Shown here in pieces: positions 6,199 to 44,750 of a DNA stretch of 44,804 nt. A model generated the notes under the pieces. It did not search any database. It saw only the letters and a list, made by a program, of their open reading frames with translations, and was not told the origin of the DNA. Each line of letters begins with the position of its first letter. Position 1 is the first letter of the stretch. The translations under genes were made by a program, and so were the position numbers. Source of the DNA: Escherichia phage JLBYU60. Location of the stretch: the sequence record NC_073052.1. One strand, written 5' to 3'.

Positions 6199-6226
6199 TT
6201 TGTTTTCCTTCATATCTCTGTTGGTG

Positions 6227-6263
6227 TGCAACCAATATAATGCAACCAACATACGCAATGCAA
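6227..6263 (-). promoter_or_regulatory. Putative sigma70-like promoter with two TTGGTTGCA elements
   Basis: On minus strand: -35 TTGCAT (6263-6258), 17-bp spacer, -10 TTATAT (6240-6235); TATATTGGTTGCACACCAACA element identical to that upstream of 40414. Confidence 0.45.
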
Positions 6264-16267: not shown

Positions 16268-17008
16268 ATGTTAACGAAAAAGGTTAAAAGCGATATCGCC
16301 GCACACGTTGCGGCGTGTCTGCCGGAAGAAGCCTGTGGCCTGGTTGTCATGGTGGGTCGTAAGCAAGTGTTCGTCCCATGTCTGAACGTATTCGAAGACC
16401 CGACCGGCGTGCGCTCCCGCAAAGACGCTTTTACGATTAGTGATATGGCCTGGATGGATGCCGAGGATATGGGCGACGTCGTGCGCGTAGTCCACTCACA
16501 CCCAGGTCAGCGCGAGTTAACCCCCTCACTGGGCGACGTTAACGGATGCAACGGCAGCGGCGTAGTGTGGACCATCACTAACGAATATGGCGACTTTATT
16601 GAGATTGACCCGGAAGACCCGCCGCTGGTTGGTCGCCGATTTGTTCTCGGAATTACGGATTGTTATGGCCTCGTTATGGACTGGCACAAAAAGCAGGGAG
16701 TAAATTTGCCAGACTTCCGCGTGCCGTACAACTGGTGGGAGACCGGGGAGAACCTGTACATGGATAACTGGTACGGTGCAGGCTTCAGGGAATGCGAGGA
16801 GAATACGCCTGGGGCGATGGTCATCATGCAGATTAGCGCGCCAGTGCCTAACCATGCCGGAATCTACCTTCCGGGCAACCAACTACTACACCACATCTAC
16901 GGCAGCCTGTCGAGCGTGGTCCCCTTCCGGGCGGGATTTTTCCGCGACAATGTGGTTAAATGGGTCCGTCATAAAGACCTACCGGGGAATATCACAGAAT
17001 GGCAATGA
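16268..17008 (+). CDS. Tail assembly protein (lambda gpK-like, JAB/MPN + NlpC/P60)
   Basis: JAMM motif VVHSHPGQRELTPSLGD and downstream catalytic-Cys region DCYGLV typical of gpK. Confidence 0.8.
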   Translation: MLTKKVKSDIAAHVAACLPEEACGLVVMVGRKQVFVPCLNVFEDPTGVRSRKDAFTISDMAWMDAEDMGDVVRVVHSHPGQRELTPSLGDVNGCNGSGVVWTITNEYGDFIEIDPEDPPLVGRRFVLGITDCYGLVMDWHKKQGVNLPDFRVPYNWWETGENLYMDNWYGAGFRECEENTPGAMVIMQISAPVPNHAGIYLPGNQLLHHIYGSLSSVVPFRAGFFRDNVVKWVRHKDLPGNITEWQ

Positions 17009-22314: not shown

Positions 22315-22346
22315 GTATTACACCGCCCAACCAGGATTGCAACCAA
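22315..22346 (-). promoter_or_regulatory. Putative promoter for the antisense lipoprotein gene
   Basis: On minus strand: ATTGGTTGCAA containing -35 TTGCAA (22342-22337), 16-bp spacer, -10 TAATAC (22320-22315). Confidence 0.4.
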
Positions 22347-24055: not shown

Positions 24056-24078
24056 GGGGCCGCACGGCCCCTTTTTTA
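24056..24078 (+). terminator. Rho-independent terminator after tail fibre gene
   Basis: GGGGCC-gcac-GGCCCC followed by TTTTTT. Confidence 0.8.
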
Positions 24079-24651: not shown

Positions 24652-24693
24652 TGTGTTGCCCTCATTGATGCGGGCCGAAGCCCGCGATTAGAA

Positions 24694-25215: not shown

Positions 25216-25277
25216 GGTTTGTCTCCTTTTAGGGGAGGCAGTATTGCCTCCCGATGTGGTTAATATAGTTGGTTGCA

Positions 25278-25748
25278 TTATTGGTTGCAAGTGAATTTTG
25301 CAAGATTCACAGAATAAATATGCGGGACCAGTTCTTCACACGCCCGTTTGATGGCGGCGATGTTCTTCGCGCAGTCGTCAATGATGACCAGTTCGTTAAC
25401 TTCTGCATAGCACACCAGGCCAAATACGGAACGGGCCTTGTACTCTGGCGGCGGCGTGTCATCAAGCATATGGCGTAAGAACAGACGACCTTTCGGGAAT
25501 CTATCCAATTGCTCTTTCGTTGACTCCCAGCAATCTGACTGGCGGTTTGACAGGTACGCAATGTCGAAGCCCTGTTTAGCGTACATGCGCAATAACGGCA
25601 GCATGTCATAATTAATGTCTTCGCGGACGTGGGCCTTATGCCACTTCGCCCAAAACGTTGATTTAGTCTTGATCCCCGGAACTAGGTCGTCGCGCACACT
25701 GCTTGACCCGTTGATAACGCCATCTAAATCGCAAATCAGTAGTTTCAT
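25278..25748 (-). CDS. HAD-superfamily phosphatase (nucleotidase / polynucleotide phosphatase-like)
   Basis: 156 aa; HAD motif I LICDLDGV and motif IV VIIDD. Confidence 0.65.
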   Translation of the reverse strand: MKLLICDLDGVINGSSSVRDDLVPGIKTKSTFWAKWHKAHVREDINYDMLPLLRMYAKQGFDIAYLSNRQSDCWESTKEQLDRFPKGRLFLRHMLDDTPPPEYKARSVFGLVCYAEVNELVIIDDCAKNIAAIKRACEELVPHIYSVNLAKFTCNQ

Positions 25749-25922
25749 TTTAATTCCGCCATTAAATTTTCACGTACAATACGGGCCGAGAATGCGTCGC
25801 ACACAAGATGGCAACGCGCCGTCATGACAAGCCAGCCAGTTAGGTCAAGGCCCAGCAATTGATGAGGTTGGCTTGCGCGCCTTACTTTATTTCCAGGGAA
25901 AACCTGGTAGCGTTTAATTATT

Positions 25923-26877: not shown

Positions 26878-26958
26878 CGTGTTGTCTCCAGGTATTAAAA
26901 AAGGCGTCCAAACCGGACACCCTTAAGATAATGCAACCAATATGATTATGCAACCAAT

Positions 26959-29446: not shown

Positions 29447-29633
29447 TGTTCCAGTTCCTTTTTGTAGCGTCGTAGTTGGTGGCGTGTCCGATGTGCACCC
29501 CGGTAGCCCGGAAGCTCTTAAATTTTTGCCAGCACACCGTCAACGGCAGCGGATCATTCATGCCCGCGATAAACCATACGCGATCGCCCGGTTTACATTC
29601 GCCCAGCTTGGTGAGTCGGTAATGTTCTTTCAT
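29415..29633 (-). CDS. Hypothetical protein
   Basis: 72 aa from ATG 29633 with RBS GGGAGA preceded by a terminator-like hairpin; no motifs. Confidence 0.45.
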   Translation of the reverse strand: MKEHYRLTKLGECKPGDRVWFIAGMNDPLPLTVCWQKFKSFRATGVHIGHATNYDATKRNWNSETEVWKKAE

Positions 29634-29645
29634 CGTCATGTCTCC

Positions 29646-29670
29646 CAAAAATGGCGGGACAAGCCCGCCG
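29646..29670 (-). terminator. Terminator-like hairpin on minus strand
   Basis: Minus strand reads GGCGGGC-ttgt-CCCGCC then ATTTTT, immediately followed by RBS GGGAGA and ATG of the 29415-29633 gene. Confidence 0.5.
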
Positions 29671-29676
29671 TATTAA

Positions 29677-29850
29677 TTATTTTTGTTCTGCACGGTAGCG
29701 GCGCTGCCGTTCGCGCTCTTTCTTATTGCGGCACGATTTGCACTCGGCCCTATACCCGTCTGGACTGCGCGCAGTCTTACCGGTGTATTTGTGGAACTGG
29801 GATAGCGGCTTTACACAGCCGCAATTACTGCAGCGTTTCTCTTCAATCAT
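29677..29850 (-). CDS. Small zinc-ribbon protein
   Basis: 57 aa from ATG 29850 with RBS GAGGA; CSNCGCVKPL...ECKSCRNKK matches the repeated N-terminal zinc-ribbon modules of the HNH endonuclease at 30166-30768. Confidence 0.45.
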   Translation of the reverse strand: MIEEKRCSNCGCVKPLSQFHKYTGKTARSPDGYRAECKSCRNKKERERQRRYRAEQK

Positions 29851-29890
29851 TTCTAAAATCCTCGTTAGTGCTAACCTGCTCACTATACTG

Positions 29891-30169
29891 TTAAGCGACC
29901 AAATCAGCAACCAATAAATCGCAGTCGACTATGTTGTCAATAACGCGAACGTTAGCACCGCGGCGGGCCATCCGCTCATGTTCGCGTACCTGGTGCGGCT
30001 TCGGTTTTCCACCGGGGCGCTTCACTTCGACGAACACTATTTTGCCGTTGATGATGATAATCAGGTCGGGCGCACCTGCGCGCCCCTCCCATGCCAGTTT
30101 TCGGCAGAATCCGCCTACCTCTTTCACCCGTCGCATCAGGTGACTTTGTATCTTGCCTTCTGGTGTCAT
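29891..30169 (-). CDS. VRR-NUC domain nuclease
   Basis: 92 aa from ATG 30169 with RBS AAGGA; core GAPDLIIIINGKIVFVEVKRPGGKPKPHQ typical of VRR-NUC (PD-(D/E)xK) proteins; start ATGA-overlaps HNH gene stop. Confidence 0.65.
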   Translation of the reverse strand: MTPEGKIQSHLMRRVKEVGGFCRKLAWEGRAGAPDLIIIINGKIVFVEVKRPGGKPKPHQVREHERMARRGANVRVIDNIVDCDLLVADLVA

Positions 30170-30768
30170 TGTCGGCTTTTCCTTACGGCAGCGATGGCAG
30201 GTCCGATAAACTTCTTCATTTCGTCCGGGGTAAACCGATCCCCGCGGGCTATGTTGCACTCTACGCAGCACGGCACGCAGTTATCTTTCGTATGGCCTAC
30301 TGCGTTGTCGAGTCGGTCCGCGCCATTGTCGCCGGTGAATCCGCAGTATGCGCACGGCTGAGAAGTAAGGCGCAGCACGTCCTCTGTAGTAAGGTCGGTG
30401 TTTAGCCCCTTCCTTTCGTCTGCCTTACGGTACTGAAAGAGTTTATAGTAAGCGCGGATCTCTGGTGTCCGGTGGTTGTACTCGCGGCGTGACTTATTAG
30501 CGCACGATCGGCATTCTTTACGAATATGTGACCCGTTTGCTTGGCTTCCTGGCCGGAAGTTTTCCGGCGTGAGCGGCTTGCGCTCACCGCACGTACGACA
30601 TGTTACGATCTCCCCGGTGTACTCTCGCCATACTTCTCTCGGCGGCGCGCCTCTTTCCTTATCCCGTCTCTCTTTCTTATATGCCGCCATGCATTTGGCG
30701 CACCACGACTGGCCCTTGTTGAAAGCGGACTCATCTTTACCCGTATTACAACGCCCACAATGTTTCAT
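30166..30768 (-). CDS. HNH endonuclease with N-terminal zinc-ribbon repeats
   Basis: 200 aa from ATG 30768 with RBS GAGGTG; C-terminal HNH core CAYCGFTGDNGADRLDNAVGHTKDNCVPCCVECN; two CxxC...CxxC modules at the N-terminus. Confidence 0.7.
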   Translation of the reverse strand: MKHCGRCNTGKDESAFNKGQSWCAKCMAAYKKERRDKERGAPPREVWREYTGEIVTCRTCGERKPLTPENFRPGSQANGSHIRKECRSCANKSRREYNHRTPEIRAYYKLFQYRKADERKGLNTDLTTEDVLRLTSQPCAYCGFTGDNGADRLDNAVGHTKDNCVPCCVECNIARGDRFTPDEMKKFIGPAIAAVRKSRQ

Positions 30769-30816
30769 ATACACCTCGAAAAAGAAAACGCCAGACAATA
30801 ATGCCCAACGTTTCCG

Positions 30817-33108: not shown

Positions 33109-33275
33109 TGCTTTATCCTCACTACGGCGTCAGCGCTGCCGATCATGGAGAAGATGCCGTCTGACAGGGCAATCTCTTCGCCGTTGTTGCGAATCTCGGC
33201 AACTGTGAAATATTCCCCCAGTAGCTTAGACCATACCCGCATTCCGACTTTTACTTCGCTGGCTTTAATACGCAT
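33105..33275 (-). CDS. Small hypothetical protein translationally coupled to DNA polymerase
   Basis: 56-aa ORF (MRIKASEVKVGMRVWSKLLGEYFTV...) not in the six-frame track; its TGA overlaps the polymerase ATG (ATGA). Confidence 0.4.
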   Translation of the reverse strand: MRIKASEVKVGMRVWSKLLGEYFTVAEIRNNGEEIALSDGIFSMIGSADAVVRIKQ

Positions 33276-33333
33276 TTTTCATTGTCCTATTAAAAAGCCC
33301 GCATTAAGCGGGCTTGAATAGTGGGCTTTGCCC

Positions 33334-34113
33334 TTAACGGCGGCGACGTTTACGTGGCGCTTCGTCTTCGTCGTCGTCCTCATCTTCGTCATCGCGTGGC
33401 TTACGCCGTTTGCGAGGTTTTTCATCTTCCTCATCGTCGTCGTCATCGCGGCGCTTGGATTTCTTGGACTTGCGCGGCTTGTCATCTTCATCATCGTCAT
33501 CACGACGTTTTGACTTTTTGGACTTGCGCGGTGCTTCGTCTTCGTCGTTGTCCAGGTCTTCATCGGAGCAAGACGACCCGCCACCTCCGAAGGCTTCGCC
33601 GTCTTCACGGAATCGCAGACCCAGCAAGCCAGCCCCGAGACCCTTGCCGTTGGTATTGTTCCACGCCCAAATATCCAGGGACACATTGCAATAACAACCG
33701 GAGTAGATCTCCTGGCCTTCGATCTCGTCGCCTTCTACGGTCAGACCTTGTTCCGTCTGCTTCTCGCCAAGTGACGTTTGAATGATCGGCTGTTTGAACG
33801 ATTTGGCGTTGATGTACAACATGCCTTCGAATTCTTCGGTTACTTCGTCGCGCTCGTCACCGTCGCGAACTGCGCATTCCTTAGAATCCTGGGCGTAGTG
33901 GCGGTCCATCCACTTATCGGCATTCTTCTCGGATTTCAGCTTATCGGTGAGCACTGCGCGCGCTGCCGCTTCCACTTTGTCCACCTGCGGATCTTCTTTA
34001 TCCAGAAGAATAACGGCACGGTATGCCGGTTTTTGACCATCCTGTTTAGGGGTATCACGTTCCCAAATTTTAAGGAAGCATACGCGCACATTTTTCAGGT
34101 TGACTTTAGCCAT
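33334..34113 (-). CDS. Putative ssDNA-binding protein (DUF2815/gp2.5-like) with charged C-terminal repeats
   Basis: 259 aa from ATG 34113 (MAKVNLKNVRV) with RBS GAGGAA; adjacent to a DUF2800-like exonuclease; C-terminus has tandem K/R-rich and D/E-rich blocks (DEAPRKSKKSKRRDDDDEDDKPRKSKKSKRRDDDDDEED...). Confidence 0.45.
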   Translation of the reverse strand: MAKVNLKNVRVCFLKIWERDTPKQDGQKPAYRAVILLDKEDPQVDKVEAAARAVLTDKLKSEKNADKWMDRHYAQDSKECAVRDGDERDEVTEEFEGMLYINAKSFKQPIIQTSLGEKQTEQGLTVEGDEIEGQEIYSGCYCNVSLDIWAWNNTNGKGLGAGLLGLRFREDGEAFGGGGSSCSDEDLDNDEDEAPRKSKKSKRRDDDDEDDKPRKSKKSKRRDDDDDEEDEKPRKRRKPRDDEDEDDDEDEAPRKRRRR

Positions 34114-34203
34114 TTTCCAATTCCTCATTTTCACATGTATCGGGGTTATTGGAGGCCACCCCGTTCGGCTTGGTTGCCAATTTACTTGGTTGCGCTTAAG
34201 CGG

Positions 34204-34446
34204 TCAAGCATTTTCATTAAAAAGATTTCTGGTCACGTAGTTGGTAGCGTTCTCGATCCAGCTTAACGGCGGGCGGTCGATGTTCTTCTCCACCCAATCG
34301 ACGGCAACTTCGCTATAGCCGTCATCCAGCCAGCGGGTCGGATGGCGAATCATCCACGCCACCATTAACACGCCTTGCACGCAATGCAGGATAAAGCCCA
34401 GCGCTCCGAGCAAAAACATCAATAAGATTGCGAATACTTTATTCAT
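34204..34446 (-). CDS. Small membrane protein
   Basis: 80 aa with two predicted TM helices (FAILLMFLLGALGFILHCV; VLMVAWMI); stop overlaps region of TTGGTTGC motifs. Confidence 0.5.
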   Translation of the reverse strand: MNKVFAILLMFLLGALGFILHCVQGVLMVAWMIRHPTRWLDDGYSEVAVDWVEKNIDRPPLSWIENATNYVTRNLFNENA

Positions 34447-35869
34447 TGCTTAAGTCCTCGTCAGTAGCTTCCGACCACGCAGGGCGCGGGTCGTCGATTG
34501 GTGCTAACACCGGTTTGGCTGGTGCGCGCGTGATTTTATCACACAGCTTCGCCCACACTTTCGGTTTTTCGTCCTTCAGTACCTTCTCGGCATCCGTAGG
34601 GCTGAGCAATGTTTCTTTGTACATCACATCGCGCTTGATCCGGGCCTTCGTGAAGATTTCAATAACTTCGCTCTCGTCCGCCCACTTACGGATCCCTTCC
34701 TTACCGGCAACCATCTTGAGGCCCAGCGATTCGCCATCGCCCGCCATTACCGCTTTGAATACCGCGGACTCGATAGCTTTGATGTGCTGGCGCATTGCGT
34801 CCAGGCCTTCATAAGCCTTGCGCAGTTCCGCAGCGCTCATAGCGCCTGGGGCCGCTTCTTTCTTGCCACGCTTCGCACGTCGTGCCGCTTTGCGGGCTTC
34901 GCGGGCCATATTGCGGTCGTGATTGGCGCATTCTTCCTCTGTCGCAATACTTACGTCGTCGCCCAGGTCTTCGTCTGTTGCCGTTGGTGGGGTCATCGTG
35001 TCGATTGCAGCCTTAGCGCGGGCGCTACACTGATCCGCAAATCTGCACCACTGACACGCATCAACGCTCGGTCGGAAGTCGGCACGGGTGAGTCCCTTTT
35101 TGCCGCGGGCGTACGCTTCCAGGGCGGCGATAGCACGCTTTGACGCAAACTTAGCGAATATCTCCAGGGCTTCTACCGAAATATCCCACTCCGACGCCCC
35201 GCCGCAATACGGCTGGAAGATAACCAGGCGCACGGTCGTGATGTCGTACATGGATTGCAGCTTGCGCAGCAGGCCGAGCGCGTACAACATAAGCTGTTTG
35301 TTTTCTTTCGCCTCGACCTTATGCCGCCCGGTCTTCAGGTCGCCAACAATCAGCATGTACGTGCCGTCGGTCTTCTTCATGACCATGACCATATCCGCAG
35401 TGCCGAACGTCTTAACCCGGTTGCCGTCGATCTCGAAGCCAGAGTGTAGGACGCGGGTGAGATCGGCGCGCATCTCAAGCTGAACAAACTCCGCCACTTC
35501 GAGGAGCGGTCGCCAGTGGTCGATGTACGCGTCGCACTGTTTCACCATGTCGTCGTTGACCAGTACGCCGCCTTTCGGTGCTTTCGGGTGGGCCTTTACC
35601 GGCCCCTTACCTTCGTTCTCGACGTAACACCCTTTGTACGTCTTAGCGGTTATCAGCTTCTCACCGGCGATAATACGGTTGAGCACGACTTCAGATACGG
35701 TGTGCATACTCGTACCGTTAATCGCCGCTTGCCCGGATTCGTTCGGGATACCCTGTTCTACCACCAGGGCGGCGGGGCAACCCATCCATTTTTTAGCACC
35801 GGATGGCCCGAGTAATGAATGTTCCGTATTACTACCGGATTGTGTTTTGCGCTTCGGTTTAATCGCCAT
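34439..35869 (-). CDS. Cas4/RecB-like PD-(D/E)xK exonuclease (DUF2800-like) with C-terminal extension
   Basis: 476 aa with RBS AAGGGTGG; N-terminal LLGPSGAKKWMGCPAAL, nuclease core IVGDLKTG, Cys cluster CQWCRFADQC; extra ~150-aa charged C-terminal region. Confidence 0.6.
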   Translation of the reverse strand: MAIKPKRKTQSGSNTEHSLLGPSGAKKWMGCPAALVVEQGIPNESGQAAINGTSMHTVSEVVLNRIIAGEKLITAKTYKGCYVENEGKGPVKAHPKAPKGGVLVNDDMVKQCDAYIDHWRPLLEVAEFVQLEMRADLTRVLHSGFEIDGNRVKTFGTADMVMVMKKTDGTYMLIVGDLKTGRHKVEAKENKQLMLYALGLLRKLQSMYDITTVRLVIFQPYCGGASEWDISVEALEIFAKFASKRAIAALEAYARGKKGLTRADFRPSVDACQWCRFADQCSARAKAAIDTMTPPTATDEDLGDDVSIATEEECANHDRNMAREARKAARRAKRGKKEAAPGAMSAAELRKAYEGLDAMRQHIKAIESAVFKAVMAGDGESLGLKMVAGKEGIRKWADESEVIEIFTKARIKRDVMYKETLLSPTDAEKVLKDEKPKVWAKLCDKITRAPAKPVLAPIDDPRPAWSEATDEDLSNE

Positions 35870-36057
35870 TATTCCACCCTTGAAAATTGAGCAATGTAAT
35901 AATCGTGTTCAACATTGGCCCGCTTCGCGGCATTGTTCATGGTAGCCGCCAGTCCTCGAGCTTGCATCCAGCAGCAATTCCAGTTTTGATTCATAACGAT
36001 TTCTGGTTGCTCGTCGCCGGTAATACGGCAACGAAATAAAACAAAGAATATAGCCAT
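35869..36057 (-). CDS. Small hypothetical protein
   Basis: 62-aa ORF with ATG 36057 abutting the upstream gene stop; end overlaps exonuclease start by 1 nt; no motifs. Confidence 0.35.
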   Translation of the reverse strand: MAIFFVLFRCRITGDEQPEIVMNQNWNCCWMQARGLAATMNNAAKRANVEHDYYIAQFSRVE

Positions 36058-36309
36058 TTATTTTGTCTCCCAGCGGTCAATTGTTTTTGCTTCGGATGCA
36101 ACTGCGAAGCGAACATATTCCAGATTGGAATCAGCCCAAATATAAAAGTCTGGATTAATAAAGGTGGTGCGCTTAATTTGCGCGGGAGTATTGCGGCGTT
36201 TATCTATTACGGCAACGCGTGACTGAAAGTTGCCGATGCGTTCGAATAGCCAATAATAAGGGCGTTGGTCGCGTGAATCCACCGCCTCGATTAGCGTGAA
36301 GCGTGCCAT
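36058..36309 (-). CDS. Hypothetical protein
   Basis: 83 aa with RBS GAGGA; preceded by a terminator-like hairpin. Confidence 0.5.
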   Translation of the reverse strand: MARFTLIEAVDSRDQRPYYWLFERIGNFQSRVAVIDKRRNTPAQIKRTTFINPDFYIWADSNLEYVRFAVASEAKTIDRWETK

Positions 36310-36321
36310 TGTCTCGTCCTC

Positions 36322-36350
36322 TAAAAAGAGGCCCGCAGATTAGCAGGCCG
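36322..36350 (-). terminator. Terminator-like hairpin on minus strand
   Basis: Minus strand reads GGCCTGC-taatct-GCGGGCC (one mismatch) then TCTTTTT; downstream of stop at 36358. Confidence 0.45.
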
Positions 36351-36357
36351 GAATACA

Positions 36358-36873
36358 TTAATCTTCCAGTTCGAAATAGGTTTCGACGATTTCTTTTAGC
36401 TCTGTGTGGAAGTCTTCGACGTCGTCATCTTCCAGCTTGGCGATTGATTTGATCTCGAACGATTCCAGCAGGTCGTCGAATTCGTCGTTCGCATCGTCGT
36501 CGTCACCACCGGCAATAATCGCGGCATACTGTTTGATCTCGTCGCGCATCTCTGCCAGCGGATCGGCATCTTTCTTGCCTTTGCCTTTTGCCGGTGCTTT
36601 TTTAGACTTAGCCGGTTTTTCATCTTCGGCATCGTCGTCGTCATCTTCTACGACTTCTTTTTTGGCCTTACCCTTCGCCGGTGCTTTTTTAGCTTTAGCC
36701 GGTTTTTCGTCTTCGGCGTCATCGTCGCCATCTTCGACAACTTCTTTTTTGGCCTTAGACGGCTTCTTGTCTTCCTGCTTACCAACGGCAGCGCCAACGG
36801 TTTCATAATGCTTTGCAATGGTCTCCAGTGCTACTACGCCGCGAGTGATCAGGTTTACGATTTGCTCAAACAT
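36358..36873 (-). CDS. Hypothetical protein with tandem lysine-rich/acidic repeats
   Basis: 171 aa from ATG 36873 (MFEQIVNL) with RBS GGAGATA; central duplicated ~31-aa unit (KPAKAKKAPAKGKAKKEVVEDDDDDAEDE) and acidic C-terminus; the six-frame ORF extension to 37053 lacks a credible start. Confidence 0.55.
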   Translation of the reverse strand: MFEQIVNLITRGVVALETIAKHYETVGAAVGKQEDKKPSKAKKEVVEDGDDDAEDEKPAKAKKAPAKGKAKKEVVEDDDDDAEDEKPAKSKKAPAKGKGKKDADPLAEMRDEIKQYAAIIAGGDDDDANDEFDDLLESFEIKSIAKLEDDDVEDFHTELKEIVETYFELED

Positions 36874-37110
36874 GGTATATCTCCGATTGGTTAAGTTTAG
36901 GTGTCGGCAGTTAACTTCGTCGGTGGCCTTAACATATTGCCAGGTTACGCGTTCTCCCGTTCGGGTAGTGGACCTGGTTATATAATCACGGTTGGGAATC
37001 CTGACACTTCGATCCGGCCCCTGCGGTGCCCCTCTCCAGTTTGCGTCCTGCATCCTGTCGACGGAGTGAATGATAGATTGGTTGCAGGATGGGTGTCAAC
37101 AACTAATTTC

Positions 37111-37143
37111 AAAAAAAAGCGCCGAAGCAAAATGCGACGGCGC
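37111..37143 (-). terminator. Terminator-like hairpin on minus strand in large intergenic region
   Basis: Minus strand GCGCCG...CGGCGC stem (large loop) followed by TTTTTTTT. Confidence 0.4.
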
Positions 37144-37214
37144 TAACCAATAAGAGACAATGAGACGGAAAGTATTATTACACGCGTGCGCGCCCGTTTC
37201 AATATCCAAAGGAT

Positions 37215-37243
37215 TTGACACCCTGCGGTTTTAGGTGTAGTTT
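37215..37243 (+). promoter_or_regulatory. Putative sigma70-like promoter for HTH regulator gene
   Basis: -35 TTGACA (37215-37220), 17-bp spacer, -10 TAGTTT (37238-37243); followed by inverted repeat TTGGTcattaaCCAAC overlapping the RBS region. Confidence 0.4.
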
Positions 37244-37274
37244 CATTGGTCATTAACCAACAGGAGACTGAATT

Positions 37275-37604
37275 ATGAATATCAAAGAAGCAATTGAAGT
37301 GTTATCTAATGCTATCCGCGGCGAGGCGGGTAAATCCTGGTATTACACAAATGCGGTGGATACTCTGTTATTTGAAGTGTCCAGGTTATCGCGTGCTGAG
37401 AAGGAGCTTACCGCCAAACTGGAATTACTGAATGGAACGGCAGCAAGCAAGCTGCAAAAACACAATGAAGAAATGGAAGAATACAAAAAGCAGGTTATCC
37501 GTTTGCGCGCCGAGGGCAAATCTTGGGCGATGATTGCCGAGTTGACCGGAATTAATCAGAGCACAGTGCGCTCCTGGGTACGCAATAATAAAACTTCTAA
37601 GTAA
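37275..37604 (+). CDS. HTH DNA-binding protein (putative early transcriptional regulator)
   Basis: 109 aa with RBS AGGAGA; C-terminal HTH-like segment SWAMIAELTGINQSTVRSWVRNN; first + strand gene after a 400-bp divergent intergenic region with sigma70-like promoter. Confidence 0.6.
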   Translation: MNIKEAIEVLSNAIRGEAGKSWYYTNAVDTLLFEVSRLSRAEKELTAKLELLNGTAASKLQKHNEEMEEYKKQVIRLRAEGKSWAMIAELTGINQSTVRSWVRNNKTSK

Positions 37605-37614
37605 GGCCACGGCA

Positions 37615-39879
37615 ATGAGCTTGATTAAATTCGCTGTAACAAAACCCGCTAAAAAAGGCGAAAAAGCCAGGGCGGAAAACTTCCAGATGACGACCGATGA
37701 GTTTTTCGAATTTATCAAAGATGCGAAAGAAATCTCCTCGGTGCATATCAACAAGACGGAAGATAAAGCCGAGTATGCGCGCCGCAAGCGTAAGGCCGAT
37801 GGCATCGTGGCGTATACCAGTGACGGATTGCGTCGTAAGACCAGTGCGGTGGACCGTTCGATCCTGTTCTTTGATATTGACCGCACCGACACCCGCACCC
37901 TGCGCCGCTGCCGCAAGGCGTTCATCGACGCGGGTCTGGAACACGTATTTCACACCACAACCGGCGACCGCCACCCGCTGAAAGGAGGCACGCGTTGCGC
38001 TCGTTTCCTGGTGCTCACCGATAAGCCTGTACCTGCTGAAGACCTGGGCCGCGTCCAGTATGCACTATTACACCAACTGGGCCTGTCAGATGTGGACTTC
38101 GATGATTGCACGAAAGACACAAACCGCCTTATGTACCTGCCTCACCAGCAATCGGTTGTTAAGTGTCACTACGGCAAACGTGCCCGCGTCCGTCGTCTGC
38201 TGCGCCTGGCGGATAAGCTGGGAGTGGAAAAAGAGGAAGTACGCCGCGAACTAACCCAGGGCGATGACGGCGTGGCGGACGGCATTCTGGATTGGTGCTT
38301 CCAGGCCGGATTCGAACCGCTGTCGTCCGGTCGTGGTTATGAAGTGCCATGCCCGAACGAACATCTGCATAGTGGCGAAGGGTCCACCGCTATCATGGTT
38401 AAGGATGGCGAGATCCGTTTCAAGTGTATGCACACCGGCAACGAGTGCTGTTCCGAACTGAACAGACACCAGCACCTGGCGCTACGTCTTATCGGGATCC
38501 CGGACCACCTGAACGTCGAACCGCACAACATGTCACGTAAGCAAATCGCCGCCATCCTTCCGGGACTGGACGACGAGGAGGTCGAATCGTGCTATGAACA
38601 TATCGTTGATGCGGTCGGTGACGGCGACGAGTACGGCGGATGTACGGACGCAGACCTGGACAACGAGCCGGTTGCACTGTTCAGTAAGCACGACCCGATC
38701 ATAGAAGGTCTGATTAACTTCAAATCGACCTGGTATATGGCTGGCGAGTCGAACATCGGTAAATCGTTCTACGTGCTGGGCCAAATGGGTGCGGTTGCCG
38801 CGGGGATTCCGTTCGGCGGCGCGAAGGTCGTCCAGTCCCATTGCTTCTATTTCGACGCGGAAGGTGGCGAAGCCTCTAACCAGCGCAAAGAAGCATTGCA
38901 GATTAAATATGAGCACGACCTGGACAAGCTGCACATTATCGATCTGCAATCACGCGGCTGGGATATCACCAGCAAATCCGGCTTGCGTGAAGTTATCAGC
39001 TTCATCAACCGCACCGCTAACGGCGAACCGGTTGGCCTGGTGGCGTTCGACTCACTCAACCAGACTGTTGCGTTGCGGTCCGCGGATGCTAAACCGTTCG
39101 ACGAGAACAACGCCAGCGATATGGGTGAAGTGGTCAAAGCGCTGAAGGCCATCGCGGAAAATACAGGTGGCAGTGCGGGCGTCATCCACCACCCGGCGAA
39201 GGGTGCAAACGGCAGCAGAACCCCCCGCGGGTCCGGCGCGCTGCATGGCGCTGTCGATTCTGCGTTCTTCCTGGAACAGCCGGACGACAACCAGCCAGGC
39301 CAATTGAACCTGTATCACGAAAAGGCACGTAACGGCATCAAGCAAGCGCCGCGTGGCTTCGTCCTGCTCAAGTGCAAGGTGAAGGTGGATCTCCGCAAGT
39401 CAGAAGCGTTCGAAGCCCACCAGTCCACCAGCACCGGGCCGGACTTCGGCGATGTGGTCGCCGGTTGGGACGTCAAGCCGATCGCATCAACGCCACGCGA
39501 CGAGACTCTTTACCTCGTACCGGTCGCCCTGGCACCGTTCGCCATTGAGCAGGCAAAGGCCGCTGGCAAGGCCGCAGTTAAGGAAGAGAACGCCGCAGGA
39601 CCGCGCAACGAAAAAGAGAAAGTGCTTTATGCAGCGCTGGAAAAACTGATGGAAGATAACCCGGACCATACCGGATTCAGCAAATCGGCAATTGTCCGCC
39701 AGGCTGGGCTTGCGAAAGGTGGCACATCGACGAAGGCAATCGACGATATGGTCGAGCGCGGCGTACTCGGTTTTTACACAGATCCGCACACCGGGGCCAT
39801 CTATGGGTCGTCGAATATCGTCATCAAAACGAATATACCCATCACGCTTTCGGCGACCGATGATGATTTAAAAGATTAA
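37615..39879 (+). CDS. Primase-helicase (replication initiation protein with RecA-like AAA_25-type ATPase domain)
   Basis: 754 aa; N-terminal region with LFFDIDRTD acidic motif and Cys/His zinc-binding segment CPNEHLHSGEG...FKCMHTGNEC; central Walker A GESNIGKS and Walker B-like LVAFDSLNQ. Confidence 0.7.
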   Translation: MSLIKFAVTKPAKKGEKARAENFQMTTDEFFEFIKDAKEISSVHINKTEDKAEYARRKRKADGIVAYTSDGLRRKTSAVDRSILFFDIDRTDTRTLRRCRKAFIDAGLEHVFHTTTGDRHPLKGGTRCARFLVLTDKPVPAEDLGRVQYALLHQLGLSDVDFDDCTKDTNRLMYLPHQQSVVKCHYGKRARVRRLLRLADKLGVEKEEVRRELTQGDDGVADGILDWCFQAGFEPLSSGRGYEVPCPNEHLHSGEGSTAIMVKDGEIRFKCMHTGNECCSELNRHQHLALRLIGIPDHLNVEPHNMSRKQIAAILPGLDDEEVESCYEHIVDAVGDGDEYGGCTDADLDNEPVALFSKHDPIIEGLINFKSTWYMAGESNIGKSFYVLGQMGAVAAGIPFGGAKVVQSHCFYFDAEGGEASNQRKEALQIKYEHDLDKLHIIDLQSRGWDITSKSGLREVISFINRTANGEPVGLVAFDSLNQTVALRSADAKPFDENNASDMGEVVKALKAIAENTGGSAGVIHHPAKGANGSRTPRGSGALHGAVDSAFFLEQPDDNQPGQLNLYHEKARNGIKQAPRGFVLLKCKVKVDLRKSEAFEAHQSTSTGPDFGDVVAGWDVKPIASTPRDETLYLVPVALAPFAIEQAKAAGKAAVKEENAAGPRNEKEKVLYAALEKLMEDNPDHTGFSKSAIVRQAGLAKGGTSTKAIDDMVERGVLGFYTDPHTGAIYGSSNIVIKTNIPITLSATDDDLKD

Positions 39880-39954
39880 ATTTTGCGCGCATTGGTTGCC
39901 GATATGGGAATTCCCATATCGCTAAAAGGTTAAATTTTGCGCGCATTGGTTGCC
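39876..39954. repeat. 25-bp perfect direct repeats flanking a 20-bp perfect palindrome
   Basis: TTAAATTTTGCGCGCATTGGTTGCC at 39876-39900 and 39930-39954; palindrome GATATGGGAATTCCCATATC at 39901-39920; first repeat overlaps the primase-helicase stop codon. Confidence 0.85.
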
Positions 39955-40015
39955 ATTTTGAGTGTTTTTATCAGGTCGTATTGGTTGCCGTGTAGTGTGA
40001 ATATAGTGAATAGTT

Positions 40016-40201
40016 ATGCAGTTTTACTGCATAAACCAAACGGGACAGAAAGCGGGACAAACAAGGGGCGGGACAAAGCGGGACAGCACCCCCGTCCCGC
40101 CCCGGATGGCGCGGCCTGGAGAGGAGCGGGACAGCGGGACAGCACCCCAGTCTTTCAGACTAGACGGGGGTCAGCGGCCCCCCTCGTCTGAGACTGAATA
40201 A
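40016..40201. repeat. Dispersed direct repeat, copy B (CGGGACA iterons plus long imperfect hairpin)
   Basis: Same orientation and length as copy A, 28,061 bp downstream; central ~45 bp diverged; located in the non-coding hub after the primase-helicase gene. Confidence 0.8.
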
Positions 40202-40350
40202 AATCCGAGGATTGCAAAATACACGGCAGCATGATGCGAAGGGCGGTCGTCGATGAACCAGGCAACCAATGCGGGTTGCATTATGCTGAGTGAAAAATGC
40301 AGTTTGCAGTCACAGCAGATAGCGATCAACTTTTTCATGCGCGTGATTAA

Positions 40351-40393
40351 TATTGGTTGCACCCTGCCTGGCGCCCTGCTATATTGGTTGCAC
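40351..40393 (+). promoter_or_regulatory. Putative sigma70-like promoter with duplicated TATTGGTTGCAC elements
   Basis: -35 TTGCAC (40357-40362), 17-bp spacer, -10 TATATT (40380-40385) preceded by TG-like extension; second TTGGTTGCACACCAA copy spans the predicted start site; gene starts at 40414. Confidence 0.5.
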
Positions 40394-40728: not shown

Positions 40729-41160
40729 ATGACCCGTAGACGCGCAAAACAGCTTTCGTGGCATATTCCCCTGCATTGCATACGAATATGGGCTAAGAAT
40801 GCGAATGTGGGGGATTCTGTATTCTGGTGTTATCGCGACGACGTAAAGCCACTGACGCAGACTCGCTACTTGCACCTGTTCGCAGCAAAGCACGGATTCC
40901 AGGTGCGGACTTCCTTGCAACCAATGGGGATCCGTATTACATTACGCCGAAAGCCCGCCATTGAGCGGGTAGGCAAACACTGGAGACTGAGCAAAATGAA
41001 CAAGCAACCTGAACGCTGGCGGAGTAAGGCCACGCGACTGACTTACTTCGTGACAGAAGAAGCAAACGGCAACGTGACTATTTCACACCCTAAGTGTGGT
41101 ACTCGCCGCACTATCTCGCGCCTCACATTAGTTCGTAACTACAGGAGATTGACAGAATGA
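40729..41160 (+). CDS. Hypothetical basic protein
   Basis: 143-aa ORF, arginine-rich; RBS-like GAGG upstream; no motifs. Confidence 0.5.
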   Translation: MTRRRAKQLSWHIPLHCIRIWAKNANVGDSVFWCYRDDVKPLTQTRYLHLFAAKHGFQVRTSLQPMGIRITLRRKPAIERVGKHWRLSKMNKQPERWRSKATRLTYFVTEEANGNVTISHPKCGTRRTISRLTLVRNYRRLTE

Positions 41161-43350: not shown

Positions 43351-43512
43351 ATGTTAAAAAGCATTCTTGATCATAACGCCGACGCGCTCGCCGCGCTGGC
43401 TAAAACCGAAGACCCAGGCGCTCGCGCCATTATCGCGGACACTATCAGTCATGCTGGCGTATTTGACGCGAAGCTGCCGAGTCCGCCACCGCCCGCAGAG
43501 ACTGAAGAGTAA
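43351..43512 (+). CDS. Small hypothetical protein
   Basis: 53 aa from ATG 43351 with RBS GAGGAG; followed by rho-independent terminator. Confidence 0.4.
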   Translation: MLKSILDHNADALAALAKTEDPGARAIIADTISHAGVFDAKLPSPPPPAETEE

Positions 43513-43519
43513 ACCACCA

Positions 43520-43546
43520 AGCCCGGAATTATCCGGGCTTTTTTAT
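43520..43546 (+). terminator. Rho-independent terminator
   Basis: AGCCCGGA-atta-TCCGGGCT followed by TTTTTT. Confidence 0.8.
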
Positions 43547-43607
43547 TTATTGCCCCAGTACCGTGGTATATTGCATCCAGGTCATCTCAATCTGGAAGTA
43601 AATTAAT

Positions 43608-44750
43608 ATGCACCCGCAAACTAAAATCACCGACGAGCAATTGATCGCCGAGTTGCAATCCGGCACTACCTCGAAAGATATTGCGAAGAAATACGGGATT
43701 GCCCTACGCAATGTTTATATGCGCAAAGCCCGCCTGTCGAAAAAAGGCATTGGACACGGCAACGATGCCGTAATACGCAAGCGCGTTGCCGATGGGTTTG
43801 GGGTTAAGCGCGTATCGGCCCTGGTGCGTGGCAATGGCGAAGAGGTCATGTCGTGGGTCATCACTGAGCAGGACAAAGAGCGCCAACTCGAAGCCATGCG
43901 CGCTGTTGTCGAGGGTATGAACAGCGAAATCACACCGGCAGCGCCAGTAAAAGCCCCGCCAGTACCGATCCAGGCGCTCGACTTGCTCAACCTGTACACC
44001 GTGTCAGACTTCCACCTGGGCATGTTGGCATGGGGCGAGGAGACTGGCGAAGACTGGGATATGGCGATCGCCGAAGACCTGTTCTACCGCTGGTTTGTCG
44101 AAGCCTTCGCACGCGCCCCGGACGCAGGCACTGCCGTAATTAATATCCTCGGTGATATGGTCCACTTTGATAGCCTTGATGCCGTCACACCGGCCAGCGG
44201 TCACGTACTGGACGCGGATACCCGCTACCAGAAGCTGGTCCGCTACATGATTCGCATGGTGCGCAACGTCGTCGAACTGGCGCTGCAAAAACACCACAAA
44301 GTCAAACTGCTAATCGTCCAGGGAAATCATGACGAGTCGGGTATGATTTGGCTGGCTGAGATGTTCAATACTCTGTACGAGAACGAGCCGCGCGTCGATG
44401 TGGATACGTCCCCGGACGTCTACAAAATGGTGCAGCACGGTAAGACCACGCTATTCTTCCACCACGGGCACAAAGCGCGATTCGATGCTATCGAGCAGGT
44501 TATGATTTCTAAATTCAGACAGGCTTTCGGATCCAGTGAGTACAGCTACGCGCACGTAGGCCACTTGCACCACCAGAAGATTGTAGAATCCCGCAACATG
44601 ATTGTTGAACAGCACCGGACGCTCGCAGCGAAAGACGCCTACGCCAGTCGTGGCGGTTGGATGTCCGGTCGCAGCGCAAACGTCATCACCTATAGCGCCA
44701 ACTACGGCGAAGTAGCGCGCTTAACCATTAGCCCGGAAATGTTGAAGTAA
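43608..44750 (+). CDS. HTH-domain fused metallophosphoesterase (calcineurin-like phosphatase/nuclease fold)
   Basis: 380 aa; N-terminal HTH-like TSKDIAKKYGIALRNVYMRKARL; metallophosphatase motifs GDMVHFD, GNHDE, HHGH, GHLHH. Confidence 0.75.
   Translation: MHPQTKITDEQLIAELQSGTTSKDIAKKYGIALRNVYMRKARLSKKGIGHGNDAVIRKRVADGFGVKRVSALVRGNGEEVMSWVITEQDKERQLEAMRAVVEGMNSEITPAAPVKAPPVPIQALDLLNLYTVSDFHLGMLAWGEETGEDWDMAIAEDLFYRWFVEAFARAPDAGTAVINILGDMVHFDSLDAVTPASGHVLDADTRYQKLVRYMIRMVRNVVELALQKHHKVKLLIVQGNHDESGMIWLAEMFNTLYENEPRVDVDTSPDVYKMVQHGKTTLFFHHGHKARFDAIEQVMISKFRQAFGSSEYSYAHVGHLHHQKIVESRNMIVEQHRTLAAKDAYASRGGWMSGRSANVITYSANYGEVARLTISPEMLK

What the first reader, a model, noticed from the sequence alone, without database searches (positions are those of the whole stretch)
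40351..40393. Family of TTGGTTGC / GCAACCAA elements concentrated in intergenic DNA
By eye I find at least 14 copies of the 8-mer (either orientation) at 6227-6249, 22339-22346, 25269-25289, 26932-26957, 29907-29914, 34170-34193, 37078-37086, 39891-39988, 40262-40269 and 40353-40392; chance expectation for an 8-mer in 44.8 kb on both strands is about 1-2. They are often paired 10-30 bp apart. In several cases TTGCA(C/T/A) within the element sits 16-17 bp upstream of a TATAAT-like hexamer, so the element may be an extended -35 of phage promoters. In two places the identical 21-mer TATATTGGTTGCACACCAACA lies about 20 nt upstream of a start codon (6198 minus, 40414 plus) and contains the inverted repeat TTGGT-N5-ACCAA. 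Mixed orientations relative to genes suggest operator-like sites for a phage regulator rather than a simple promoter.
Basis: seen in the sequence. Interest (0 to 1): 0.65.

Follow-up and report, generated by a model that had tools for sequence, protein, structure and literature searches.

The report
Origin iteron reused as promoter operator
An exact 8-base word, TTGGTTGC, marks this E. coli phage's likely replication origin and also sits inside the core of almost every early promoter, so one phage DNA-binding protein probably controls both DNA replication and early gene shut-off.

Summary
The window is a complete Dhillonvirus (HK578-like coliphage). TTGGTTGC occurs 19 times against 1.9 expected. 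One-mismatch variants are not enriched. Fifteen copies lie in the 5.6% of non-coding DNA (P=5e-16).

The copies form two groups:
- Four flank the putative origin just downstream of the primase-helicase gene (three forward, one reverse).
- Thirteen are built into eight sigma-70-type promoters of the non-structural genes. They supply the -35, sit in the spacer 1-2 bp before the -10, or cover the start site, in either orientation. This layout fits promoter occlusion, not a fixed promoter element.

The octamer columns are more conserved than neighbouring non-coding DNA across six Dhillonviruses (95% vs 82%).

Related phages carry TTGG-NN-GC iterons at the same place, around the primase-helicase stop codon. 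The central dinucleotide is lineage-specific (TT, CT, CA, CC). The orthologous SSB and Lar promoter sites change with it (L006 vs L135).

The primase-helicase, with a predicted C-terminal winged helix, is therefore the best candidate binder. That step is inferred, not shown.

I rate it a new variant of a known kind, of moderate interest.

The parts
39892..39899 (+). Origin-region iteron 1 (subclass GCATTGGTTGCC), 13 bp after the primase-helicase stop codon
   Evidence: It belongs to a 54-bp direct repeat. Orthologous iteron arrays occur in relatives.
39946..39953 (+). Origin-region iteron 2
39981..39988 (+). Origin-region iteron 3, upstream of the conserved origin core GTGAATAGTTATGCAG (40006-40021)
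   Evidence: The core is shared with Salmonella FSL SP-031, Enterobacter phiEap-2 and Pantoea AH01, where the iteron TGTTGGCTG abuts it.
40262..40269 (-). Origin-region iteron in inverted orientation, on the far side of the GCGGGACA-repeat/hairpin centre
   Evidence: Inverted arrays of this kind also occur in L135 (3+3) and L136 (3+2).
40353..40391 (+). Promoter P8 for hyp53 and downstream genes. Copy 1 (40353-40360) supplies the -35 TTGCAC (40357-40362). After a 17-bp spacer comes the -10 TATATT (40380-40385), which overlaps copy 2 (40384-40391). Copy 2 is the left arm of the palindrome TTGGTTGCACACCAA.
37070..37099 (-). Promoter P7, early leftward and the best sigma-70 match in the window (11/12): TTGACA-8 nt-GCAACCAA-tc-TATCAT. 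The octamer is at 37078-37085, in reverse orientation, in the spacer.
   Evidence: HK578's GenBank record annotates a promoter at the orthologous place.
34170..34207 (-). Promoter P6 for the SSB gene: TTGACC-8 nt-GCAACCAA-g-TAAATT-g-GCAACCAA. Copies are at 34186-34193 (spacer) and 34170-34177 (start site), both in reverse orientation.
   Evidence: The same architecture occurs in L133. The orthologous promoters in L006 and L135 carry GCAACCAA and GCGGCCAA respectively at the same position.
29882..29914 (-). Promoter P5 for the Lar-like gene. The octamer (29907-29914) supplies the -35 TTGCTG, followed by a 17-bp spacer and the -10 TATAGT. A degenerate second copy, TTGGTCGC, is at 29895-29902.
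26925..26957 (-). Promoter P4 for hyp33, Dam and following genes. Copy 1 (26950-26957) supplies the -35 TTGCAT. Copy 2 (26933-26940) sits in the spacer, followed by 'at' and the -10 TATCTT. The promoter runs straight into the terminator hairpin at 26922-26896.
25262..25290 (-). Promoter P3 for hyp29: TT-GCAACCAA-taat-GCAACCAA-c-TATATT. Copies are at 25281-25288 and 25269-25276. The spacer copy is inverted to TTGGTTGC at the same position in L001, L002, L004 and L005.
22315..22346 (-). Promoter P2 for the small superinfection-exclusion-like gene. The octamer (22339-22346) supplies the -35 TTGCAA, followed by a 16-bp spacer and the -10 TAATAC.
6219..6263 (-). Promoter P1 for orfX (5884-6198) and Nmad5: TTGCAT-8 nt-TTGGTTGC(6242-6249)-at-TATATT. 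The -10 overlaps the second copy (6228-6235), which forms the palindrome with ACCAA.
37246..37260 (+). Palindrome TTGGTCATTAACCAA made of two partial copies. It covers the predicted start site of P_R (TTGACA 37215-37220, TAGTTT 37238-37243), the promoter of the hyp50-primase-helicase operon.
   Evidence: It is conserved in 5 of 6 Dhillonviruses. L133 has a full octamer in the same leader.
37615..39879 (+). Primase-helicase gene. The protein has a putative primase-like (AEP-type DxD) N-terminal region identified by eye, a Cys/His cluster that could be a zinc ribbon, an AAA_25 helicase core and a C-terminal winged helix (about aa 660-740, DNA 39592-39834). It is the best candidate for the iteron-binding protein.
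37275..37604 (+). hyp50, a 109-aa protein with a C-terminal HTH (Sigma70_r4_2/HTH_23). It is the alternative candidate binder.
16875..16882 (-). Intragenic copy inside the minor tail gene. It is conserved with the coding sequence and is probably not functional.
40917..40924 (-). Intragenic copy inside hyp54. It is conserved in all Dhillonviruses examined. Its function is unknown.

Best explanation
TTGGTTGC is the recognition site (an iteron that also serves as an operator) of one phage-encoded, sequence-specific DNA-binding protein.

Shown:
- The octamer is exact, strongly enriched and intergenic.
- It is under stronger purifying selection than neighbouring non-coding DNA.
- Copies flank the putative origin next to the primase-helicase gene, three forward and one reverse.
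- The remaining non-coding copies are embedded in the core of eight sigma-70-type promoters that head the non-structural transcription units.
- Related phages carry TTGG-NN-GC iterons at the same origin position, with a lineage-specific central dinucleotide.
- Orthologous promoter sites change together with the origin iterons.

Inferred:
- The bound protein marks the origin for replication initiation.
- Because the sites overlap the -35, the spacer next to the -10, or the start site, in either orientation, the protein also blocks host RNA polymerase at the early and middle promoters. This would include weak palindromic sites at the promoter of its own operon. The result would be feedback, or an early-to-late switch that couples transcription to replication.
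- The most likely binder is the primase-helicase, through its predicted C-terminal winged helix.
For: Enrichment and exactness:
- 19 copies against 1.86 expected.
- No excess of one-mismatch variants.
- 15 of 19 copies lie in the 5.6% of non-coding DNA, P=5e-16.

Conservation:
- Five other Dhillonviruses carry 19-22 copies each.
- Octamer columns, defined on the window alone, are 95% identical in relatives. Other non-coding columns are 82% identical (Fisher P=3e-16).
- The sister-clade contig L133 (primase-helicase 68% identical) has 13 copies in 22 kb against 1.0 expected, with the same promoter architectures.

Promoter embedding:
- Five copies supply the -35.
- Five copies lie in the spacer 1-2 bp from the -10. 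Three are reversed, and one is flipped between genomes.
- Three copies cover the start site.

Origin link:
- Iterons cluster around the primase-helicase stop codon in all lineages examined. They lie next to the conserved core GTGAATAGTTATGCAG.
- The arrays are inverted in L135 and L136.

Co-variation:
- The central dinucleotide is TT in Dhillonvirus, L133, L006 and L129. It is CT in L007, L130, L131 and L137, CA in L134 and L136, and CC in L135.
- The SSB promoter reads TTGACA-3 nt-GCAACCAA in L006 and TTGACA-3 nt-GCGGCCAA in L135.
- The Lar promoter reads -10-g-TTGGTTGC in L006 and -10-g-TTGGCCGC in L135.
- The copy inside the primase-helicase C-terminal tail codes LVA in L006 and LAA in L135.

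Candidate binder:
- The primase-helicase is present in all 15 lineages compared. Conserved proteins were tabulated for only nine of these, and no other conserved protein there has a recognised DNA-binding domain. Only part of the proteome was scanned for domains.
- Its C-terminus is predicted as a winged helix (pLDDT 78-89).
Against: - No binding or transcription data exist. Promoters and the origin are predicted from sequence only.
- The winged-helix recognition helix is not conserved among the TT-type lineages. Only 3 TT-specific columns were found in the whole protein, none of them in the winged helix. The primase-helicase therefore shows no visible specificity code.
- A second repeat family, GCGGGACA, is confined to the origin-like regions. 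It could be the true initiator site, leaving TTGGTTGC to another protein.
- In Serratia phage Tsm2, 11 of 12 copies are intragenic. Dispersal into promoters is therefore not universal.
- One motif pair upstream of a small gene in other Dhillonviruses has no recognisable -10.
- Repression rather than activation is inferred from position only.
Confidence: 0.5

Rival explanations
1. One reading: the sites are operators of the small HTH protein hyp50 (37275-37604), the first gene of the rightward early operon. It would act as a global early regulator and regulate itself through the palindrome at its own promoter.
For: - hyp50 is the only protein in the window with a recognised HTH among about 35 of the 63 ORFs scanned, namely those lacking a clear function.
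- Its HTH segment stays conserved even where the N-terminus diverges, as in HK578.
- Every phage that has it (Dhillonviruses and L133) shows the TTGGTTGC enrichment.
- TTGGT-N5-ACCAA covers the start site of its own promoter. L133 has a full octamer there.
Against: - Homologs occur only in Dhillonviruses and L133.
- Klebsiella phage VLCpiS11a has 13 copies of the same octamer, 10 of them intergenic and promoter- or origin-associated. It has no hyp50 homolog and no other HTH_23/sigma-4-like protein.
- L135, which carries a Cro-like HTH instead, has the same site layout with TTGGCCGC.
- Swapping in an unrelated regulator while about 15 sites stay unchanged is unlikely.
- The Cro-like proteins do not track iteron type. 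The recognition helix begins SQSALS in L006 (TT type) and TQSAIS in L007 (CT type).
Confidence: 0.2
2. The octamer is simply part of the phage's own sigma-70 promoter consensus, an extended -35 read by host RNA polymerase. No phage protein would be involved.
For: - TTGC(N)(N) within five copies lies 16-17 bp upstream of a good -10.
- The -35-like hexamers TTGCAA, TTGCAT and TTGCAC match TTGACA at 4 of 6 positions.
- The phage encodes no RNA polymerase, so it depends on the host enzyme.
Against: - Twelve of the 17 non-coding copies are not at -35. They lie in the spacer, at the start site or in the origin arrays.
- Both orientations occur at the same spacer position. One site is flipped between genomes.
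- All eight bases are invariant, including the four bases upstream of the -35-like hexamer. I know of no base-specific sigma-70 contact there.
- The central dinucleotide differs between lineages that infect closely related enterobacteria, and it co-varies between origin and promoters.
Confidence: 0.1
3. The sites act only in DNA transactions: primase start sites, helicase-loading sites (secondary origins) or recombination linkers between gene cassettes. Their overlap with promoters would be incidental, because promoters occupy most of the scarce non-coding DNA.
For: - Inverted arrays at the origin.
- The protein next door has a putative primase-like N-terminal region with a Cys/His cluster, identified by eye.
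- Motif-bearing promoter-plus-gene cassettes come and go between genomes, for example the cassette between hyp64 and hyp65 that is missing from the window.
Against: - Placement relative to the -10 is too regular. Motif-NN-TATATT recurs at P1, P3 and P4 and in L003.
- Sites are absent from the non-coding DNA of the 22-kb structural block, except for one divergent region.
- Known primase recognition sites are about 3 nt long (my own knowledge).
Confidence: 0.1
4. The octamer is the target of the phage's small Dam-family methyltransferase (PF05869).
For: Among 9 genomes compared, this is the only protein present in all TTGGTTGC-enriched phages and absent from all five non-enriched ones.
Against: - To my knowledge, characterised members of this family methylate GATC.
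- Over-representation of a methylation site in promoters has no obvious rationale.
- The non-enriched phages still carry variant iterons without this enzyme. The correlation rests on three independent lineages.
Confidence: 0.03

Closest known systems
Phage P4 alpha protein and its type I iterons (TGTTCACC) in ori and crr
   Same: - An octamer iteron is repeated in direct and inverted orientation at an origin.
- The initiator is a single primase-helicase polypeptide with a C-terminal winged-helix origin-binding domain. The P4 side rests on my own knowledge. The winged helix here is predicted.
   Different: - P4 iterons are confined to two replication regions. Here most copies are inside promoters across half the genome.
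- The helicase core here is RepA/AAA_25-like.
- No sequence or top-ranked structural match to P4 alpha was obtained.
SV40 large T antigen binding GAGGC pentamers; plasmid Rep and DnaA autoregulation
   Same: An initiator (a helicase in the SV40 case) recognises short repeats arranged as inverted arrays at the origin. The same sites overlap early or own promoters, so initiator accumulation represses early transcription. This is established knowledge, used here as an analogy.
   Different: Those systems regulate one or two promoters next to the origin. Here eight promoters up to 34 kb from the origin carry the site. There is no homology, and binding is untested.
Phage P1 C1 repressor operators
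   Same: Many asymmetric sites (17 or more in P1) are dispersed round the genome. They overlap promoters and sometimes pair into incomplete palindromes (my own knowledge).
   Different: P1 is temperate and C1 is its immunity repressor. Dhillonviruses are described as virulent, and I saw no integrase or immunity repressor. The sites here double as origin iterons.
Mycobacteriophage L5 gp71 'stoperators'
   Same: An asymmetric short site occurs in about 20-30 copies in short intergenic gaps.
   Different: Stoperators share one orientation relative to transcription and block elongation. Here the split is 11 co-oriented to 6 opposite, and the sites lie in promoter cores.
Lambda CII sites (TTGC-N6-TTGC) and T4 MotA boxes
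   Same: A phage factor reads a TTGC-containing element at or near the -35 of promoters that have an imperfect -35.
   Different: Those elements have fixed spacing and position: a 10-bp repeat straddling the -35 for CII, and a box centred at -30 for MotA. Here start-to-start distances are 12-54 bp and positions range from -39 to about +10.

Membership tests
Sigma-70 -35 / extended -35 promoter element | Fixed position 16-18 bp upstream of a -10 hexamer, on the transcribed orientation | tested here: not met
   Only 5 of 17 non-coding copies fit. The others lie in the spacer, at the start site or in the origin arrays, and 6 are in the opposite orientation.
Sigma-54 promoter (GG-N10-GC) | The GG and GC dinucleotides lie 12 bp apart | tested here: not met
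   Within one octamer the offset is 4. For pairs the offset is the start-to-start distance plus 4, giving 16-58. No pair is 8 bp apart.
Replication-origin iterons | Several copies cluster next to, or inside, the gene of the replication initiator | tested here: met
   Six copies lie within 700 bp of the primase-helicase stop codon in the window. There are 3-6 copies at the same place in 11 related lineages.
Replication-origin iterons | Sequence co-evolves with the lineage (specificity variants at the orthologous locus) | tested here: met
   TTGGTTGC, TTGGCTGC/T, TTGGCAGC and TTGGCCGC occur at the orthologous position. Each is enriched over shuffles where tested.
Replication-origin iterons | Bound by the initiator protein, and the region functions as the origin | not testable with these tools
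   Only circumstantial evidence: a predicted winged helix in the primase-helicase, and the SO-1 GenBank note 'possible origin'.
Dispersed repressor operators (P1 C1 type) | Asymmetric sites, many copies, overlapping promoter cores | tested here: met
   Thirteen copies lie in 8 predicted promoters at the -35, spacer or start site.
Dispersed repressor operators (P1 C1 type) | A cognate repressor gene is identified | tested here: inconclusive
   hyp50 is an HTH protein but is absent from L006 and L135, which use the same site system. The primase-helicase is conserved but shows no specificity code.
Stoperators (L5 gp71 type) | A single orientation relative to the direction of transcription | tested here: not met
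   Eleven copies are co-oriented and six opposite.
Lambda CII-type activator sites | A direct repeat with 10-bp period straddling the -35 | tested here: not met
   Start-to-start distances are 12, 14, 16, 17 and 31 bp. There is no Phage_CII Pfam hit.
P4 alpha-like primase-helicase-OBD initiators | One polypeptide with a primase, a helicase and a C-terminal winged-helix origin-binding domain | tested here: inconclusive
   The helicase core (AAA_25) and the C-terminal winged helix are supported. The primase domain is inferred by eye from DxD and Cys/His motifs. There is no detectable homology to P4 alpha.

The most novel reading that the evidence does not exclude
A bacteriophage primase-helicase doubles as a genome-wide transcriptional repressor. 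Its origin iteron (code TTGG-NN-GC, with the middle dinucleotide re-assigned in different lineages) has been copied into the core of essentially every early and middle promoter. Accumulation of the replication initiator would then both fire the origin and shut off early transcription, an SV40 T-antigen-like early-to-late switch operating across a whole phage genome.
Probability: 0.3. Interest if true: 0.75.

Novelty: new variant of a known kind. Interest (0 to 1): 0.55.

Why it matters
How small virulent siphophages of enterobacteria (Dhillonvirus, Guernseyvirinae) time their gene expression is largely unknown. They encode no RNA polymerase, and I found no sigma factor or classical repressor.

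This result gives a concrete, testable regulatory map:
- eight predicted promoters;
- one putative origin;
- one exact 8-bp site that links them;
- a natural set of specificity variants (TT, CT, CA, CC) in relatives, usable for swap experiments.

If the binder is the primase-helicase, replication initiation and early shut-off would be coupled by a single protein.

The map is also practical. Dhillonviruses belong to the BASEL collection and are being engineered for therapy (search result for PMC11846954). Knowing the promoter and operator cassettes and the origin helps in designing insertions and avoiding the disruption of control elements.

Tried and rejected
- Sigma-54, CII-type and MotA-type readings were rejected on spacing and position.
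- A scan of viral contigs for paired octamers returned mostly chance hits and coding tandem repeats, plus a few Dhillonvirus fragments. It was not informative.
- Phylogenetic profiling for a co-occurring DNA-binding protein returned only the PF05869 Dam methyltransferase, judged coincidental. Dcm fails the profile: it is absent from Tsm2 and present in Pantoea AH01.
- I looked for a hyp50-like protein in the Klebsiella phage with an HMM and with Pfam scans of its small ORFs. None was found.
- hyp48, the first gene behind P7, was considered as a regulator. It is an acidic low-complexity protein and an unlikely sequence-specific binder.
- A search for specificity-determining positions in the primase-helicase found no signal in the winged helix.
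- Searching homologs with the C-terminal fragment alone found almost nothing. The full-length query worked.
- Literature searches on the octamer, Dhillonvirus promoters, HK578 and SO-1 found no description of the motif.
- Rfam found nothing significant around 36.9-40.5 kb.
- Host factors I recalled (CytR GTTGCATT, CspA ATTGG, FNR, DnaA, IHF) do not match the invariant 8-mer. They also cannot explain the lineage-specific variants. These comparisons rest on my own knowledge and were not tested.
Full report
**What the window is.** Megablast places the window in the genus Dhillonvirus (HK578-like virulent E. coli siphophages). 144 phage records cover at least 80% of a 4-kb query at 80-95% identity. 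The window is colinear with phage Oekolampad/Bas18, and I transferred that gene map by tblastn.
- Structural genes lie on the + strand from 55 to about 24,000.
- DNA-metabolism genes lie on the - strand from 24,076 to 37,053.
- A rightward block starts at 37,275 (hyp50, primase-helicase, small genes, lysis genes) and continues into the terminase genes.

**Checking the observation.** TTGGTTGC occurs 19 times on both strands, against 1.86 expected (0 of 100 shuffles reach 19).
The two it missed (16875, 40917) are the only copies deep inside genes.
- Allowing one mismatch adds 44 sites, against about 43 expected. The element is therefore an exact 8-mer, not a loose consensus.
- Fifteen copies lie wholly in the 5.6% of the window that is non-coding (P=5e-16). 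Two more sit in the last codons of genes.
- The flanks carry little information: A is preferred at -1 (13 of 17) and A or C at +1.
- The 21-mer and its palindrome are confirmed. TTGGT-N5-ACCAA has a third exact copy at 37246.

**Where the copies sit.** I combined the consensus scan with inspection of each site. Thirteen copies fall in eight sigma-70-like promoters, each at the head of a non-structural transcription unit.
- **Octamer supplies the -35:** TTGC plus two bases, followed by 16-17 bp and then TAnnnT. This holds at P2, P4, P5 and P8. At P3 the palindromic -35 TTGCAA overlaps a reversed copy.
- **Octamer in the spacer, 1-2 bp before the -10:**
  - P1: TTGGTTGC-at-TATATT
  - P4: TTGGTTGC-at-TATCTT
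  - P3: GCAACCAA-c-TATATT
  - P6: GCAACCAA-g-TAAATT
  - P7: GCAACCAA-tc-TATCAT
- **Octamer over the -10/start-site region:** P1, P6 and P8.

P7 is the best sigma-70 match in the window (TTGACA-18-TATCAT, 11/12). It corresponds to a promoter annotated in the HK578 record. At P3 the spacer copy is reversed in this phage and forward in four relatives, at the same position.

The remaining four non-coding copies (39892, 39946, 39981 forward; 40262 reverse) share the longer form GCATTGGTTGCC. They flank a region of hairpins and GCGGGACA repeats immediately after the primase-helicase gene. The SO-1 GenBank record labels this 'region B ... possible' origin.

**Selection on the sites.**
- Five other Dhillonviruses have 19-22 copies each at orthologous places.
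- I aligned five non-coding regions without reference to the motif in the other genomes. Columns under the window's octamers are 95% identical in relatives, against 82% for the remaining non-coding columns (Fisher P=3e-16).
- The bases just outside the octamers vary freely. At P1, for example, the seven bases upstream and the two between motif and -10 differ in nearly every genome.
- A metagenomic sister clade (L133, primase-helicase 68% identical) has 13 copies in 22 kb against 1.0 expected. It shows the same P4, P5, P6, P7 and P8 architectures and an origin array.

**The wider family.**
- Klebsiella phage VLCpiS11a (L006, primase-helicase 48% identical) has 13 copies against 1.6 expected. 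Ten are intergenic: at the origin, in the early divergent region and at the SSB, Lar and accessory-gene promoters.
- Serratia phage Tsm2 has 12 copies. Four cluster in the 3' end of the primase-helicase gene, but most are intragenic.
- Salmonella FSL SP-031 and SETP3, Hafnia TS33, Enterobacter phiEap-2 and Pantoea AH01 are not enriched for TTGGTTGC.
- FSL SP-031, TS33 and phiEap-2 nevertheless carry the related word (A)TGTTGGCTG(C/T) 3-5 times around the primase-helicase stop codon. It abuts the core GTGAATAGTTATGCAG, which Dhillonviruses also have in regions A and B.
- Four of the six further metagenomic lineages fetched through the primase-helicase add variants (the other two, L138 and L139, show other repeats near the origin):
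  - TTGGCAGC: L134, and L136 with 6 copies against 0.9 expected.
  - TTGGCTGC: L137.
  - TTGGCCGC: L135, with 11 copies against 1.5 expected.
  - These are arranged as inverted arrays of 3+3 or 3+2 around a centre of about 250-290 bp.
- The family can be written TTGG-NN-GC, with a lineage-specific middle.

**Co-variation.** L006 and L135 are each other's closest relatives by primase-helicase identity (62%), yet they use TT and CC. Three orthologous sites differ in just that way:
- **SSB promoter:** TTGACA-tct-GCAACCAA (L006) against TTGACA-ggt-GCGGCCAA (L135).
- **Lar promoter:** -10, g, TTGGTTGC, SD (L006) against -10, g, TTGGCCGC, SD (L135).
- **Primase-helicase C-terminal tail:** the copy codes ELVASDEDL (L006) against ELAASDEDL (L135).

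This is the strongest argument that a single protein reads both the origin and the promoter sites, and that its specificity has drifted between lineages. It also argues against a host factor, because these phages infect closely related enterobacteria.

**Who binds?**
- **hyp50.** It has a C-terminal HTH (Sigma70_r4_2/HTH_23) that is conserved even in HK578. Its own promoter carries the TTGGT-N5-ACCAA palindrome.
  - In the phage collection its homologs are confined to Dhillonviruses, plus L133.
  - L006, L129, L134, L135 and L136 have a Cro-like HTH_3 protein in that position.
  - The recognition helices of those Cro-like proteins do not track iteron type.
- **Primase-helicase.** It is present in all 15 lineages compared. 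In the nine-genome comparison of conserved proteins, no other conserved protein has a recognised DNA-binding domain.
  - With a 42-sequence alignment, AlphaFold2 predicts its last 90 or so residues as H-(β)-H-H-β-wing-β at pLDDT 78-89.
  - Foldseek returns MarR-type and linker-histone winged helices, with weak E-values.
  - An ATPase followed by a C-terminal winged helix is the layout of those initiators and, to my knowledge, of P4 alpha.
- **Caveats on the primase-helicase.** The recognition helix is not conserved among TT-type lineages, and no specificity-determining column maps to the winged helix. The GCGGGACA repeats are an alternative initiator site. I therefore give the primase-helicase about 0.4 as the binder, hyp50 about 0.2-0.25, and the rest to something unidentified.

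**Mechanism.** A site that appears at the -35, in the spacer, over the start site and (in L006) at about +13, in either orientation, fits steric exclusion of RNA polymerase or a roadblock. It does not fit an activator, which needs fixed geometry.
- The site-bearing promoters cover the DNA-metabolism operons, the small-gene block after the origin and two accessory cassettes. The 22-kb structural block has none apart from the divergent P1 region.
- The likely logic is as follows. Host RNA polymerase fires these promoters on entry. The protein, encoded in the P_R operon, accumulates, occupies the origin, and then turns down early and middle transcription. Eventually it also turns down its own operon through the weaker palindromic half-sites.
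- All of this is inference from positions.

**Comparison with known systems.** The closest functional analogies are:
- P4 alpha with its octamer iterons;
- SV40 T antigen, plasmid Rep and DnaA autoregulation (an initiator that also acts as a repressor);
- the dispersed asymmetric operators of P1 C1.

The system is not stoperator-like (orientation 11:6), not CII-like or MotA-like (variable spacing and position) and not sigma-54-like. I found no paper describing the motif. The only prior hint is the SO-1 record's 'region A/B' note.

**Verdict.**
- It is a new variant of a known kind, an origin iteron dispersed into promoter cores as an operator.
- It comes with a clear experimental path and a natural series of specificity variants.

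Noticed in passing
window, genome-wide (e.g. 1505, 2327, 3142 ... 44750): ACGGCA[AG]C occurs 54 times, 41 of them on the + strand (26 of 29 within 1-24000). Copies are spaced roughly every 800 bp and fall in several reading frames. The same words top the over-represented 8-mers in the Klebsiella, Hafnia, Enterobacter and Pantoea relatives. It looks like a polar, Chi/KOPS-like or priming-site-like word.
   Followed up: partly
window 37100-37202 (-): A sigma-70-like promoter (TTGAAA-17-AATAAT with an upstream TG, 37202-37174) is followed about 60 nt later by an intrinsic terminator (GCGCCG...CGGCGC-T8). The unit lies just upstream of P7 and is almost invariant in six Dhillonviruses. It is a candidate small RNA of about 60 nt, and it contains ATTGGTTAGC (the motif with a 1-nt insertion). 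There is no Rfam match. The annotated 33-aa 'hyp49' ORF overlaps P_R and is probably not a gene.
   Followed up: partly
window 11824-12080 and 40052-40141: GCGGGACA repeats: 10 of the 13 copies lie in two regions (A and B). In relatives both regions contain GTGAATAGTTATGCAG plus a hairpin, which suggests two origin-like regions about 28 kb apart. Relatives carry analogous repeats (CGGACAA, AAGGGATAA). The ORFs 11819-12130 and 40006-40191 lie on these repeats and are doubtful genes.
   Followed up: partly
window 26890-26957 (-): Promoter P4 runs directly into an intrinsic terminator. The predicted start lies inside the 5' arm of the hairpin. Read-through from the upstream operon would therefore terminate, while P4 transcripts could not form the hairpin.
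   Followed up: no
window 36358-37053 (-): hyp48, the first gene behind the strongest early promoter, probably starts at Met61 (36873). It is a highly acidic, K/E/D-rich low-complexity protein, conserved from Dhillonvirus to Jerseyvirus. It may be a host-takeover or DNA-mimic protein.
   Followed up: partly
window 43512-43608, compared with L001, L002, L004 and L005: Other Dhillonviruses carry a small membrane-protein gene here, preceded by a pair of octamers. The window lacks both the gene and the sites. Motif-plus-gene cassettes are therefore gained and lost as units.
   Followed up: partly
window 5079-5843 (-); L006 19078-19326 and 28912-29166: Genes behind motif-bearing promoters include an Nmad5 nucleotide-modification domain protein in the window. 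In the Klebsiella phage they include a Tad2-like (anti-Thoeris) protein and a YebO-like protein.
   Followed up: no
window 39901-39920: A perfect 20-bp palindrome, GATATGGGAATTCCCATATC, lies between origin iterons 1 and 2. It is present in some Dhillonviruses and absent from HK578 and SO-1, which have two iterons rather than three.
   Followed up: no
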